From NCBI RefSeq assembly GCF_009914755.1, contig NC_060935.1: 64,000 nt of DNA, one strand, 5' to 3'. Positions 43,228-47,338 of the stretch are shown piece after piece. Made by a program: the position numbers and the translations under genes. Numbering within the stretch: position 1 is the stretch's first letter; each line of letters begins with the position of its first letter. The notes beneath the pieces were generated by a model. The model made no database searches and was not told where the DNA came from. It saw only the letters and a program-made list of their open reading frames with translations. The stretch comes from the human T2T-CHM13v2.0 reference genome, Homo sapiens.

Positions 43228-46200
43228 TCAATTTCCACCTATGAGTGAGAATATGCGGTGTTTGATTTTTTGTTCTTGCGATAGTTTACTGAGAATGATG
43301 TTTTCCAATTTCATCCATGTCCCTACAAAGGACATGAACTCATCATTTTTTATGGCTGCATAGTATTCCATGGTGTATATGTGCCACATTTTCTTAATCC
43401 AGTCTATCATTGTTGGACATTTGGGTTGGTTCCAAGTCTTTGCTATTGTGAATAATGCCACAATAAACATATGTGTGCATGTGTCTTTACAGCAGCATGA
43501 TTTATAGTCCTTTGGGTATATACCCAGTAATGGGATGGCTGGGTCAAATGGTATTTCTAGTTCTAGATCCCTGAGGAATCGCCACACTGACTTCCACAAT
43601 GGTTGAACTAGTTTACAGTCCCACCAACAGTGTAAAAGTGTTCCTATTTCTCCACATCCTCTCCAGCACCTGTTGTTTCCTGACTTTTTAATGATTGCCA
43701 TTCTAACTGGTGTGAGATGGTATCTCATTGTGGTTTTGATTTGCGTTTCTCTGATGGCCAGTGATGATGAGCATTTTTTCATGTGTTTTTTGGCTGCATA
43801 AATGTCTTCTTTTGAGAAGTGTCTGTTCATGTCCTTTGCCCACTTTTTGATGGGGTTGTTTGTTTTTTTCTTGTAAATTTGTTTGAGTTCATTGTAGATT
43901 CTGGATATTAGCCCTTTGTCAGATGAGTAGGTTGCGAAAATTTTCTCCCATTTTGTAGGTTGCCTGTTCACTCTGATGGTAGTTTGTTTTGCTGTGCAGA
44001 AGCTCTTTAGTTTAACTAGATCCCATTTGTCAATTTTGTCTTTTGTTGCCATTGCTTTTGGTGTTTTAGACATGAAGTCCTTGCCCATGCCTATGTCCTG
44101 AATGGCAATGCCTAGGTTTTCTTCTAGAGTTTTTATGGTTTTAGGTCTAACGTTTAAGTCTTTAATCCATCTTGAATTGATTTTTGTATAAGGTGTAAGG
44201 AAGGGATCCAGTTTCAGCTTTCTACATATGGCTAGCCAGTTTTCCCAGCACCATTTATTAAATAGGGAATCCTTTCCCCATTGCTTGCTTTTCTCAGGTT
44301 TGTCAAAGATCAGATAGTTGTAGATATGCGGCATTATTTCTGAGGGCTCTGTTCTGTTCCATTGGTCTATATCTCTGTTTTGGTACCAGTACCATGCTGT
44401 TTTGTTTACTGTAGCCTTGTAGTATAGTTTGAAGTCAGGTAGCGTGATGCCTCCAGCTTTGTTCTTTTGGCTTAGGATTGACTTGGCGATGCGGGCTCTT
44501 TTTTGGTTCCATATGAACTTTAAAGTAGTTTTTTCCAATTCTGTGAAGAAAGTCATTGGTAACTTGATGGGGATGGCATTGAATCTGTAAATTACCTTGG
44601 GCAGTATGGCCATTTTCACGATATTGATTCTTCCTACCCATGAGCATGGAATGTTCTTCCATTTGTTTGTATCCTCTTTTATTTCCTTGAGCAGTGGTTT
44701 GTAGTTCTCCTTGAAGAGGTCCTTCACATCCCTTGTAAATTGGATTCCTAGGTATTTTATTCTCTTTGAAGCAATTGTGAATGGGAGTTCACTCATGATT
44801 TGGCTCTCTGTTTGTCTGTTGCTGGTGTATAAGAATGCTTGTGATTTTTGTCCATTGATTTTGTGTTCTGAGACTTTGCTGAAGTTGCTTATCAGCTGAA
44901 GGAGATTTTGGGCTGAGACAGTGGGGTTTTCTAGATATACAATCATGTCATCTGCAAACAGGGACAATTTGACTTCCTCTTTTCCTAATCGAATACCCTT
45001 TATTTCCTTCTCCTGCCTAATTGCCCTGGCCAGAACTTCCAACACTATGTTGAATAGGAGTGGTGAGAGAGGGCATCCCTGTCTTGTGCCAGTTTTCAAA
45101 GGGAATGCTTCCAGCTTTTGCCCATTCAGTATGATATTGGCTGTGGGTTTGTCATAGATAGCTCTTATTATTTTGAAATACGTCCCATCAATACCTAATT
45201 TATTGAGAGTTTTTAGCATGAAGGGTTGTTGAATTTTGTCAAAGGCTTTTTCTGCATCTATTGAGATAATTATGTGGTTTTTGTCTTTGGCTCTGTTTAT
45301 ATGCTGGATTACATTTATTGATTTGCATATATTGAACCAGCCTTGCATCCCAGGGATGAAGCCCACTTGATCATGATGGATAAGCTTTTTGATGTGCTGG
45401 TGGATTCATTTTGCCAGTATTTTATTGAGGATTTTTGCATCAATGTTCATCAAGGATATTGGTCTAAAATTCTCTTTTTTTTGTTGTGTCTCTGCCTGGC
45501 TTTGGTATCAGAATGATGCTGGCCTCATAAAATGAGTTAGGGAGGATTCCCTCTTTTTCTATTGATTGGAATAGTTTCAGAAGGAATGGTACCAGTTCCT
45601 CCTTGTACCTCTGGTAGAATTCAGCTGTGAATCCATCTGGTCCTGGACTCTTTTTGTTTGGTAAGCTATTGATTATTACCACAATTTCAGATCCTGTTAT
45701 TGGTCTATTCAGAGATTCAACTTCTTCCTGGTTTAGTCTTGGGAGAGCGTATGTGTCGAGGAATTTATCCATTTCTTCTAGATTTTCTAGTTTATTTGCA
45801 TAGAGGTGTTTGTAGTATTCTCTGATGGTAGTTTGTATTTCTGTGGGATCGGTGGTGATATCCCCTTTATCATTTTTTATTGCGTCTATTAGATTCTTCT
45901 CTCTTTTTTTCTTTATTAGTCTTGCTAGCAGTCTATCAATTTTGTTGATCCTTTCAAAAAACCAGCTCCTGGATTCATTAATTTTTTGAAGGGTTTTTTG
46001 TGTCTCTATTTCCTTCAGTTCTGCTCTGATTTTAGTTATTTCTTGCCTTCTGCTAGCTTTTGAATGTGTTTGCTCTTGCTTTTCTAGTTCTTTTAATTGT
46101 GATGTTAGGGTGTCAATTTTGGATCTTTCCTGCTTTCTCTTGTGGGCATTTAGTGCTATAAATTTCCCTCTACACACTGCTTTGAATGCATCCCAGAGAT

Positions 46201-46867
46201 TCTGGTATGTTGTGTCTTTGTTCTCATTGGTTTCAAAGAACATCTTTATTTCTGCCTTCATTTCGTTATGTACCCAGTAGTCATTCAGGAGCAGGTTGTT
46301 CAGTTTCCATGTAGTTGAGCAGTTTTGAGTGAGATTCTTAATCCCGAGTTCTAGTTTGATTGCACTGTGGTCTGAGAGATAGTTTGTTATAATTTCTGTT
46401 CTTTTACATTTGCTGAGGAGAGCTTTACTTCCAAGTATGTGGTCAATTTTGGAATAGGTGTGGTGCTGAAAGAAATGTATATTCTGTTGATTTGGGGTGG
46501 AGAGTTCTGTAGATGTCTATTAGGTCCGCTTGGTGCAGAGTTGAGTTCAATTCCTGGGTATCCTTGTTGACTTTCTGTGTCATTGATCTGTCTAATGTTG
46601 ACAGTGGGGTGTTAAAGTCTCCCATTATTAATGTGTGGGAGTCTAAGTCTCTTTGTAGGTCACTCAGGACTTGCTTTATGAATCTTGGTGCTCCTGTATT
46701 GGGTGCATATATATTTAGGATAGTTAGCTCTTCTTGTTGAATTGATCCCTTTACCATTATGTAATGGCCTTCTTTGTCTCTTTTGATCTTTGTTGGTTTA
46801 AAGTCTGTTTTATCAGAGACTAGTATTGCAACCCCTGCCTTTTTTTGTTTTCCATTTGCTTGGTAGA
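43228..46867 (-). pseudogene. L1 ORF2 (endonuclease/reverse transcriptase), N-terminally deleted and frameshifted
   Basis: ORFs 46443..46874, 45464..46261 and 43228..45366 are consecutive ORF2p pieces; FADD RT motif and C-terminal SLIGGN* present. Confidence 0.95.
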
Positions 46868-47338
46868 TCTTCAAGGAGAACTACAAACCACTGCTCAAGG
46901 AAATAAAAGAGGATACAAACAAATGGAAGAACATTCCATGCTCATGGGTAGGAAGAATCAATATCATGAAAATGGCCATACTGCCCAAGGTAATTTACAG
47001 ATTCAATGCCATCCCCATCAAGTTACCAATGCCTTTCTTCACAGAATTGGAAAAAACTACTTTAAAGTTCATATGGAACCAAAAAAGAGCCCGCATCGCC
47101 AAGTCAATCCTAAGCCAAAAGAACAAAGCTGGAGGCATCACGCTACCTGACTTCAAACTATACTACAAGGCTACAGTAACCAAAACAGCATGGTACTGGT
47201 ACCAAAACAGAGATATAGACCAATGGAACAGAACAGAGCCCTCAGAAATAATGCCGCATATCTACAACTATCTGATCTTTGACAAACCTGAGAAAAACAA
47301 GCAATGGGGAAAGGATTCCCTATTTAATAAATGGTGCT

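What the first reader, a model, noticed from the sequence alone, without database searches (positions are those of the whole stretch)
44247..47338. L1 with ~0.6 kb deleted and replaced by a 471-bp inverted copy of its own ORF2 (double template switch)
Seen: 46868-47338 is the reverse complement of 44247-44717 with only 4 mismatches by manual comparison, forming a near-perfect inverted repeat around a 2.15 kb spacer. It sits where the ORF1 C-terminus, inter-ORF spacer and first ~60 ORF2 codons should be (~620 bp, estimated from known L1 layout), and normal orientation resumes up to a near-complete 5' end. The left junction has TCTTC microhomology and the right has CT. Both copies share catcaagTtaccaat (consensus remembered as aagCtacc), suggesting self-templating. 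Classical twin priming inverts the 5' part without duplicating it, so this is different. Inference: the + strand is first-strand cDNA, whose 3' TCTTC could snap back onto GAAGA (44713-44717), copy 471 nt of itself, then rejoin the RNA further upstream. Post-insertion microhomology-mediated repair is the alternative.
Basis: partly seen in the sequence, partly recalled or inferred. Interest (0 to 1): 0.8.

Follow-up and report, generated by a model that had tools for sequence, protein, structure and literature searches.

The report
LINE-1 with internal inverted self-copy
A dead, almost full-length LINE-1 jumping gene on human chromosome 11 has about 620 bases of its middle replaced by a backwards copy of 475 bases from further along the same element; this is a rare copying accident of a known general kind, not a new kind of element.

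Summary
Arms 44243-44717 and 46868-47342 are reverse complements: 475 nt with 5 mismatches, or 471 nt with 4 from 44247.

The host is a minus-strand L1 with a 20-bp target-site duplication, a poly(A) tail, a 3' transduction and a 5' end about 10 nt short. The insert encodes ORF2p residues 781-936. It replaces ORF1 codon 215 through ORF2 codon 60, which is 615-626 bp. Both joints carry microhomology: TCTTC on the left, and CT(T/G)GGA on the right.

No other locus among those scored in T2T-CHM13 spans either joint (1 of 40 each). None of 29 related L1s has such a repeat.

The two arms are sister sequences with moderate support (83/74). They differ about as much as the element's own private divergence predicts for a copy made at insertion (5.8 expected, 4-5 observed). 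The confidence interval is wide.

I favour a double template switch during retrotransposition (about 0.55). A later replicative template switch (about 0.3) is not excluded. Ape orthologues would decide. I rate it a new variant of a known kind, of moderate interest.

The parts
42680..42699 (.). Left copy of the 20-bp target-site duplication (TTGAATTGTAGGCATTTTTA)
   Evidence: Read from the sequence. It is identical to 48872-48891. The target reads ...GCATTTTTA/AAAACAG, a T-rich L1 endonuclease-type site.
42700..42735 (-). Terminal poly(A)/(TAAA)n tail of the transduced transcript, seen as a T/TTTA run on the + strand
   Evidence: Homology to the chr18 locus starts exactly at 42736, after this run.
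42736..43008 (-). 3' transduced flank carried behind the L1's own poly(A)
   Evidence: The only full-length match is chr18:51422955-51423210 (256 of 265 aligned bases plus a 12-bp tandem duplication here). The other 38 of 40 scored hits cover only the right-hand ~145 nt, which is a high-copy repeat.
43009..43021 (-). L1's own poly(A), 13 T on the + strand
43022..46867 (-). L1 3' UTR and ORF2 from codon 61 to the end, in normal order; it carries frameshifts and stops
   Evidence: 94-98% identity to other L1s over its whole length; ORF2 spread over three frames; resumes at K61.
44243..44717 (-). Left arm: the resident ORF2 codons 781-937, the presumed template of the insert
   Evidence: Sister of the insert in the tree.
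46868..46872 (.). Left-joint microhomology TCTTC, shared by ORF2 nt ~180-184 (antisense) and the end of the arm copy
   Evidence: 36 of 40 hits stop at query 85-86 = 46872-3; 3 start at query 79-80. (9 of 9 relatives read ...GGTAGA|TCTTC|CTCC...).
46868..47342 (+). Inverted insert: a sense copy of ORF2 codons 781-937 lying on the + strand, with an open frame from 46870
   Evidence: E 1e-103 to ORF2p structures, residues 781-936.
47337..47342 (.). Right-joint overlap CTTGGA. It is the ORF1 sequence in 9 of 9 relatives. The arm would give CTGGGA.
   Evidence: 13 of 40 hits end at query 80; 26 start at query 72-75. (26 of 26 relatives and the left arm have C at 44246).
47343..48874 (-). ORF1 codons 1-214 (ATG = reverse complement of 47978-47980) and the 5' UTR, in direct orientation, lacking about 10 nt at the 5' end. 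TTG (48872-48874) is shared with the TSD.
48872..48891 (.). Right copy of the target-site duplication

Best explanation
An essentially full-length primate L1 inserted here by ordinary endonuclease-dependent target-primed reverse transcription. Its private divergence is about 0.6%, which is L1PA2/PA3 grade by recalled ages. It brought along about 270 nt of 3' flank from its source.

During that same event the growing DNA strand changed template twice, guided by short microhomologies.

Simplest version (inferred, not shown):
1. First-strand cDNA (the window's + strand) had been made up to ORF2 nt ~180.
2. Its TCTTC end let go of the RNA and annealed to GAAGA at 44713-44717 on the RNase-H-exposed cDNA 2.15 kb behind.
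3. It copied 475 nt of itself. This is DNA-templated 'snap-back' synthesis.
4. It went back to the still uncopied RNA about 615 nt further upstream, via CT in ORF1 codon 215.
5. It ran on almost to the 5' end.

Mirror version: the same two switches happened during second-strand (sense) synthesis, with L1 RNA as the detour template. This fits the right joint slightly better.

The result is a dead element. ORF1 is cut at codon 214, the ORF2 start is gone, and a 475-bp inverted repeat surrounds a 2.15-kb spacer.
For: Shown:
- Normal TPRT hallmarks surround the whole structure: a 20-bp TSD, a T-rich nick site, two poly(A) tracts and a 5' end only about 10 nt short. Synthesis therefore reached the RNA 5' end after the detour.
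- There are two clean joints with microhomology and no filler.
- GAAGA occurs only twice in the 4,173 nt of strand made before the switch, and the used site is one of the two.
- The arms are sisters (83/74; 84% of 200 bootstrap trees). They share a stem of 0.0022 and have own branches of 0.0046 and 0.0070, against a median end branch of 0.0097. Most of their divergence therefore post-dates the copy.
- Clock: strictly private changes elsewhere in the element are 26 of 4,250 sites (0.61%). This predicts 5.8 arm-to-arm differences for a copy made at insertion; 4-5 are seen (P(X<=obs) 0.31-0.48). The point estimate of t_dup/T is 0.69-0.86.
- No other locus carries either joint (1 of 40 scored in each).

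From papers (passages read):
- cDNA snap-back synthesis by non-LTR (R2) proteins in human cells (PMC11371274).
- Template switching of the primary RT and hairpin self-annealing of L1 cDNA ends (PMC11702581).
- Template jumping by purified ORF2p (PMC7617806).

Inference: by my rough rate estimate from the counts in PMC12350158, a later inverted duplication hitting a given 6 kb is rarer than a complex event per L1 insertion.
Against: - Timing is not resolved. The 95% interval of t_dup/T is 0.17-1.98 (4 differences) or 0.26-2.28 (5 differences).
- Two of the 5 arm differences (44553, 44619) lie at sites where 8 of 26 relatives carry the insert's state. 44553 is a non-CpG transversion, so it is an awkward coincidence for 'identical copy plus random mutation'. 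These two may not be clock-like.
- If the chr18 locus is the true source flank, its 9 differences in 265 nt (3.4%) suggest an older insertion. The arms would then be too alike.
- The insert matches chr2:12552107-12552581 as well as it matches its own arm (5 mismatches each).
- No truly private shared marker exists. The 44365G 30-mer occurs 3,288 times in the genome. 44562A occurs in at least 6 other loci.
- The T at 47339 leaves only 2 nt of microhomology for the return to RNA in the first-strand version.
- In the papers read, no L1 case of snap-back followed by return to the RNA is described.
Confidence: 0.55

Rival explanations
1. Post-insertion replicative template switch (FoSTeS/MMBIR type), or break repair with templated synthesis. 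An ordinary full-length L1 sat here. Later a stalled nascent strand switched by microhomology to the opposite-strand template 2-3 kb away, copied 475 nt in inverted orientation, and switched back 615 nt ahead.
For: - Both joints have short microhomology and no filler, which is the signature of replicative events.
- In 1,019 humans, inverted duplications were the commonest inversion class outside mobile-element insertions: 277 events, median 284 bp, mostly 1-15 bp microhomology, with a 'replicative formation origin' suggested. [quoted passage not shown]
- The clock allows a copy made as late as about 20-25% of the element's age.
- The chr18-flank divergence, if valid, favours a later event.
- The 5-of-6 pairing at the right joint fits any process that makes the sense strand.
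Against: - The arms' own branches (0.0046 and 0.0070) make up most of their distance from the family node, and the point estimate of t_dup/T is 0.7-0.9. The event was therefore early if it was not at insertion.
- By my rough estimate from the counts, about 1e-4 to 1e-3 such events are expected per 6 kb over the element's lifetime. That is lower than the roughly 1% of L1 insertions with complex internal structure. This is inference with an order-of-magnitude uncertainty.
Confidence: 0.3
2. The rearrangement already existed in the progenitor element, and the rearranged RNA was mobilised in trans, with its 3' transduction, to this site.
For: - The source element cannot be inspected. The only full-length match to the transduced flank (chr18) has no young L1 beside it in CHM13.
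- Both ORFs are disrupted, but trans-mobilisation is possible in principle.
Against: - No other locus in the assembly spans either joint (1 of 40 scored in each). Joint-spanning copies would score highest.
- Trans-mobilisation of a defective 5.9-kb L1 RNA is inefficient (established knowledge, recalled).
- The arms' shared stem is only about 1 change.
Confidence: 0.06
3. The insert was copied from a different L1 copy or molecule (ectopic template or gene conversion), not from this element's own ORF2.
For: - chr2:12552107-12552581 (L020) matches the insert as well as the left arm does, with 5 mismatches each.
- At 44553 and 44619 the insert carries states seen in 8 of 26 relatives but not in the left arm.
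Against: - The insert shares 44365G (0 of 26 relatives) and 44562A (2 of 26) with the left arm, and groups with it in the tree (83/74).
- A template 2.15 kb away on the same molecule is far more economical.
- Among the loci scored with the insert as query, the own arm was the best non-self hit (835 bits against 821 or less).
Confidence: 0.05
4. Assembly artefact (a fold-back chimera) in T2T-CHM13.
For: None from the sequence. Reads were not available here.
Against: - The arms differ at 5 positions, including a CpG-to-TpG change. A fold-back artefact would be an exact copy.
- Both joints sit on microhomology with a matching 615-626 bp deletion.
- The whole element is shorter than a single HiFi read (recalled read lengths).
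Confidence: 0.02

Closest known systems
Twin priming (Ostertag & Kazazian 2001) and its variants 'twin priming & 5'/3' switching' (preprint 10.1101/2024.08.27.596794)
   Same: An L1 insertion that contains an inverted L1 segment joined by microhomology. The variants add a template switch of a growing cDNA on the same RNA (passages).
   Different: In twin priming the inverted part is the 5' end of the insertion and abuts the upstream TSD. Overlaps at the inversion joint are short (median 22 bp; 12 bp). Here the 5' 1.5 kb is direct, the inverted piece is internal, and it duplicates 475 bp that lie 2.15 kb away.
cDNA snap-back synthesis by non-LTR retroelement proteins (R2/PRINT; PMC11371274)
   Same: The cDNA 3' end primes DNA synthesis complementary to an internal position of the same cDNA. 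This gives antisense transgene sequence (passages).
   Different: It is described for R2 proteins. There the snap-back product is then joined to upstream target DNA. Here synthesis would have to return to the RNA and finish a near full-length copy. The polymerase is also unknown here.
L1 'templated insertions' / non-canonical MEIs with internal rearrangements (10.1101/2024.08.27.596794; PMC12350158; PMC11702581)
   Same: The growing cDNA leaves the L1 RNA, copies another template and is incorporated. Multiple internal breakpoints are catalogued as non-canonical (2,916 MEIs; 22 templated insertions; a three-piece GREM insertion with a template switch).
   Different: The reported templates are non-L1 genomic DNA next to the target, or other RNAs. 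Here the template is the element's own sequence and the detour is flanked by L1 on both sides.
Small inverted duplications formed by replicative template switching (FoSTeS/MMBIR)
   Same: An inverted copy of nearby sequence, microhomology at both joints, and a few hundred bp in size (277 events, median 284 bp).
   Different: Those events are not tied to retrotransposition. Here everything lies inside one young L1, and the copy appears about as old as the element.

Membership tests
LINE-1 insertion by endonuclease-dependent TPRT | Target-site duplication flanking the whole insertion | tested here: met
   20-bp identical copies at 42680-42699 and 48872-48891.
LINE-1 insertion by endonuclease-dependent TPRT | Poly(A) at the 3' end next to a T-rich nick site | tested here: met
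   T/TTTA run at 42700-42735 directly after ...GCATTTTTA; the empty-site continuation is AAAACAG.
LINE-1 insertion by endonuclease-dependent TPRT | ORF1p and ORF2p coding homology in L1 order | tested here: met
   ORF1p residues 1-214. ORF2p 61-198 and 781-936 at E 1e-83 to 1e-103. 94-98% DNA identity to other L1s.
L1 3' transduction | Unique flank between the L1's own poly(A) and a second poly(A), inside the TSD, matching another locus | tested here: met
   42736-43008 matches chr18:51422955-51423210, with homology ending exactly at the second poly(A). At 256 of 265, whether chr18 is the source or a paralogue is open.
L1 3' transduction | A source L1 sits immediately upstream of the matching flank | tested here: not met
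   No young L1 3' end in L002 (no S1 hit). chr18 continues with other sequence after GTAGTCTTTT. The source may be absent from this assembly.
Twin priming | The inverted segment is the 5' end of the insertion and abuts the upstream TSD | tested here: not met
   47343-48874 next to the TSD is in direct orientation. The inverted piece is internal.
Twin priming | Inverted and direct parts are adjacent on the RNA, with only a short gap or overlap | tested here: not met
   The inverted piece (ORF2 codons 781-937) lies entirely within the direct part and duplicates 475 bp.
cDNA snap-back synthesis | Antisense copy of the element's own sequence joined at a site complementary to the strand's 3' end | tested here: met
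   The TCTTC end pairs with GAAGA at 44713-44717, one of only 2 such sites in 4,173 nt.
cDNA snap-back synthesis | Happens during reverse transcription and is made by the retroelement polymerase | not testable with these tools
   Only indirect dating is possible. Ape orthologues or de novo insertions are needed.
Replicative inverted duplication (FoSTeS/MMBIR) | Microhomology at both joints, a nearby template, inverted orientation | tested here: met
   The template is 2.15 kb away.
Replicative inverted duplication (FoSTeS/MMBIR) | Arose in resident DNA after the insertion | tested here: inconclusive
   t_dup/T point estimate 0.69-0.86, 95% CI 0.17-2.28.

The most novel reading that the evidence does not exclude
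During a germline retrotransposition the L1 complex left its RNA at ORF2 nt ~180 and used its own nascent cDNA 2.15 kb back as a DNA template for 475 nt. It then re-engaged the same RNA about 615 nt further upstream and completed an essentially full-length insertion. This would be natural evidence of two things. First, the L1 machinery performs long snap-back DNA-templated synthesis in vivo. Second, it keeps hold of the uncopied 5' RNA while the cDNA end is elsewhere.
Probability: 0.4. Interest if true: 0.55.

Novelty: new variant of a known kind. Interest (0 to 1): 0.4.

Why it matters
L1 insertions with several internal breakpoints are now counted by the thousand, but they are mostly left unexplained as 'non-canonical'. 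This locus is a clean, fully resolved case. It has intact insertion hallmarks, two microhomology joints, a template on the same molecule and a near-complete 5' end.

If the event happened at insertion, it shows that the reverse-transcribing complex can make a long detour on its own DNA product and still return to its RNA. That bears on how processive and how tethered L1 reverse transcription is, and on how inverted repeats inside L1s arise. Such repeats are potential hairpin or double-stranded-RNA formers.

If the event came later, it is one more small replicative inverted duplication. Either way the element is dead, and no effect on neighbouring genes is shown.

Tried and rejected
- Classical twin priming and the published 'twin priming & switching' variants: rejected, because the TSD-adjacent 5' part is direct.
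- Nested second L1 insertion: rejected. One TSD pair encloses everything, and no second 3' end or poly(A) is present.
- Splicing of the L1 RNA as the cause of the gap: rejected, because the gap is filled by antisense L1 sequence.
44562A occurs in 2 of 26 relatives and in at least 6 other loci. The 30-mer with 44365G occurs 3,288 times in the genome although 0 of 26 close relatives carry it.
- A 61-mer search around 44365 found nothing, not even the window itself, so it is uninformative.
- 'Own arm is the single best genome-wide hit': not upheld. It ties with chr2 (L020) at 5 mismatches. Scoring covered only 40 of 711 and 40 of 22,574 candidates, so it was not exhaustive.
- Finding the source element through the transduction: chr18 has the flank but no young L1.
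- Extended complementarity beyond 5 nt at the snap-back site: none for 6-8 nt.
- More relatives could not be fetched.
- Ostertag & Kazazian 2001, Szak 2002 and Gilbert 2005 are not held. What I say of them comes from citing papers or recall.
- Five literature searches and the passages read found no L1 case of snap-back with return to the RNA. Supplements and figures were not seen and might hold such cases.
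Full report
**1. What is there**

The window's 42.7-48.9 kb stretch is one L1 on the minus strand. From left to right on the + strand it reads:
- a 20-bp target-site duplication (42680-42699, identical to 48872-48891);
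- a T/TTTA run (42700-42735);
- about 270 nt of foreign flank (42736-43008);
- 13 T (43009-43021);
- L1 sequence up to 48871-48874.

The target reads ...GCATTTTTA/AAAACAG, a T-rich endonuclease-type site. Compared with 4 of 4 relatives that reach their 5' ends, this element lacks only about 10 nt, and TTG is shared between the L1 and the TSD. It is therefore an ordinary, essentially full-length TPRT insertion with a 3' transduction.

**2. The inverted repeat**

- The repeat finder gives arms 44243-44717 and 46868-47342: 475 nt, 99% complementary, 2150 nt apart.
- Base by base there are 5 mismatches, and no similarity beyond either end.
- Read on the + strand from 46870, the right arm is an open frame that matches ORF2p residues 781-936 of solved structures (E about 1e-103).
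- To its left, ORF2 resumes on the minus strand at K61.
- To its right, ORF1 runs from its ATG (reverse complement of 47978-47980) through P214 plus 2 nt.
- In 9 of 9 relatives, the distance between the points matching 46867 and 47343 is 622-627 bp.

The insert therefore replaces ORF1 codons 215-338, the spacer between the ORFs and ORF2 codons 1-60. That is 615 bp if both microhomologies are counted as retained. The rest of ORF2 is spread over three frames, so the element is dead.

**3. The joints**

*Left joint.* Relatives read ...GGTAGA|TCTTC|CTCC..., and the arm copy reads ...TCTTC|AAGGAG... Five nt are shared and there is no filler. In a genome search with 160 nt across this joint, 1 of 40 scored hits (335 candidates) spanned it, and that was the window itself. 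Of the rest, 36 stopped at query 85-86 and 3 began at query 79-80.

*Right joint.* All 9 relatives read ...GTGT|CTTGGA|GTTGC... on the ORF1 side. The arm would give ...GGTG|CTGGGA|AAAC... The left arm and 26 of 26 relatives have C at 44246. The product has CTTGGA. Across this joint again only the window spanned it (1 of 40; 418 candidates). Thirteen hits ended at query 80 and 26 began at query 72-75.

*What the T at 47339 implies.* It comes from the ORF1 side.
- If the + strand (first-strand cDNA) was the growing strand, the return joint rests on 2 nt (CT).
- If the sense strand was growing, its end ...TCCAAG paired 5 of 6 with the detour template, and the primer's own base survived.
- This is a hint about direction, not proof. 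The chance of the extra GGA match is 1 in 64.

*The snap-back site.* GAAGA, the complement of the TCTTC end, occurs only twice in the 4,173 nt of + strand to the left (1.6 expected from composition). One of the two sites is the one used. No 6-8-nt complement exists.

**4. Is the neighbouring arm the template?**

For:
- It lies on the same molecule, 2.15 kb away.
- In a 31-row maximum-likelihood tree of this 475-bp segment (29 relatives plus the two arms), the arms are sisters. Support is 83/74, and they group in 84% of 200 bootstrap trees. This is below the tool's 'starred' level, and the bootstrap had not settled.
- The arms share 44365G (0 of 26 relatives) and 44562A (2 of 26).

Against a strong claim:
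- Neither variant is private. The 61-mer with 44562A is exact at 6 other loci among the 40 scored.
- The 30-mer with 44365G occurs 3,288 times in the genome.
- chr2:12552107-12552581 matches the insert as well as the left arm does, with 5 mismatches each.
- With the insert as query, the own arm was the best non-self hit (835 against 821 bits or less). Only 40 of 711 candidates were scored, and the chr2 locus was not among them.
- At 44553 (a non-CpG transversion) and 44619 (a CpG), the insert carries states found in 8 of 26 relatives while the left arm does not.

I take self-templating as the most economical reading, not as proven.

**5. When did it happen?**

Against 22-31 related copies, I first dropped four clearly older ones (L010, L034, L037, L044). 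The element then has 26 strictly private changes in 4,250 non-arm sites, or 0.61%. 'Strictly private' means no relative shares the state and the majority state is held by at least 80% of relatives. The count of differences from the majority is 63 of 4,250, but this includes lineage markers and recurrent CpG changes. The strict rate is an upper bound on change since insertion.

- It predicts 5.8 differences between two 475-nt arms that were identical at insertion. Four or five are seen (P(X<=obs) 0.31 or 0.48).
- The ratio t_dup/T is 0.69-0.86, with 95% limits of 0.17-1.98 and 0.26-2.28.
- The tree says the same: a shared stem of 0.0022, own branches of 0.0046 and 0.0070, and a median end branch of 0.0097.

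The copy is therefore old, of the order of the element's own age, and compatible with being made at insertion. An event in roughly the first three quarters of the element's residence cannot be excluded.

There is also a contrary clock. The transduced flank differs from its only full-length match (chr18) at 9 of 265 aligned bases, plus a 12-bp tandem duplication. If chr18 were the true source flank, the insertion would be older and the arms too similar. But chr18 has no young L1 at the expected point, so it may be a paralogue or an empty allele.

**6. Controls and artefact**

- None of 29 relatives has an internal inverted repeat of 100 bp or more at 90% or more.
- A fold-back assembly artefact would give identical arms. 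These differ at 5 sites, including a CpG-to-TpG change.

**7. What is known (passages read, no figures or supplements)**

- In 1,019 long-read genomes, 5,523 of the mobile-element insertions were 'non-canonical', and 2,916 of these had internal rearrangements. They were attributed either to alternative integration mechanisms or to later SVs. Outside MEIs, 277 inverted duplications (median 284 bp, mostly 1-15 bp microhomology) were ascribed to replicative processes (PMC12350158).
- In 3,598 truncated somatic L1s, 20 and 3 cases were explained by 'twin priming & 5'/3' switching', and 22 were templated insertions of nearby non-L1 DNA (10.1101/2024.08.27.596794).
- Experimental L1 expression gave insertions with a template switch, and foldbacks explained by self-annealing of the cDNA end (PMC11702581).
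- R2 proteins in human cells produce 'snap-back' junctions, in which the cDNA 3' end primes synthesis complementary to the cDNA (PMC11371274).
- Purified ORF2p jumps templates (PMC7617806).
- A 160-bp 5' end joined directly to a 900-bp 3' end shows internal skips on the RNA (PMC10415145).
- In searches and in these passages, I found no L1 described with an internal inverted self-copy flanked by direct L1 on both sides, and none with snap-back followed by return to the RNA.

**8. Weighing**

The structure needs two microhomology-guided template switches whichever process made it.

For a switch during retrotransposition:
- The hallmarks are intact and the 5' end is nearly complete.
- There is documented precedent for each step.
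- The arm divergence matches the element's own divergence.
- A rough rate argument (my inference and numbers) points the same way. About 1% of L1 insertions are complex, against about 1e-4 to 1e-3 later inverted duplications expected per 6 kb over this time span.

For a later replicative event:
- The joints look exactly like those of ordinary small inverted duplications.
- The dating interval is wide.
- The chr18 clock favours it.

My estimates are 0.55 for at insertion (about 0.4 for first-strand snap-back, the rest for the second-strand mirror version), 0.3 for a later event, and about 0.15 for the remaining explanations together (inherited from the source, foreign template, artefact).

**9. 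Verdict**

It is not classical twin priming. It is best filed as a new variant within the known class of internally rearranged L1 insertions. The mechanism is plausible but its timing is unproven, and ape orthologues would settle it.

Noticed in passing
window 48638-48933 (+), with 47978-48621: According to the hub's annotation, exon 1 of lncRNA LOC102723568 starts inside this L1's 5' UTR, on the strand opposite to the L1. It runs out across the L1 5' end and the TSD into the flank. This is the layout expected of a transcript driven by the L1 antisense promoter (recalled knowledge). A RefSeq 'enhancer' (47978-48621) also lies on the L1 5' UTR.
   Followed up: no
window 41500-42650: A 1.1-kb block made almost only of A and T, with tandem units (for example 33-nt spacing, copies 97-98% alike at 42341-42644) and many near-perfect palindromes (for example 138-nt arms 1 nt apart at 42347-42623). 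It lies directly left of the L1's target site. AT-rich palindromes of this kind are known fragile or recombinogenic sites.
   Followed up: no
window 42736-43008; L002 (chr18:51421455-51424710): The 3' transduced flank matches chr18:51422955-51423210 (256 of 265 bases plus a 12-bp tandem duplication, CCCTACCCAGTT, in the window copy). Homology stops exactly at the second poly(A) on one side. On the other side it stops at GTAGTCTTTT, where CHM13 chr18 has no young L1. The site looks like an empty or paralogous source locus with a TTTT/AT nick-type site.
   Followed up: partly
window ~42862-43008: The right-hand ~145 nt of the transduced flank is itself a high-copy repeat: 38 of 40 scored genome hits cover only query ~120-268 at 86-91% identity. 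From memory it resembles the 3' end of an older L1 family read in the opposite orientation. This was not tested.
   Followed up: no
window 44553/47032 and 44619/46966: Two of the five differences between the arms fall on sites that are polymorphic among related L1 copies (8 of 26 relatives carry the insert's state at each). At 44553, the 8 are L018, L020, L022, L023, L030, L031, L041 and L043, which all share the element's states at 43301 and, all but L030, at 43100. No explanation tried accounts for the non-CpG one without a coincidence.
   Followed up: partly
window 47327-47345 (minus strand): The truncated ORF1 reads from P214 into the inverted insert for a few codons (...RRATPSTIY) before a stop. 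Any product would be an ORF1p of about 218 residues lacking most of its C-terminal domain.
   Followed up: no
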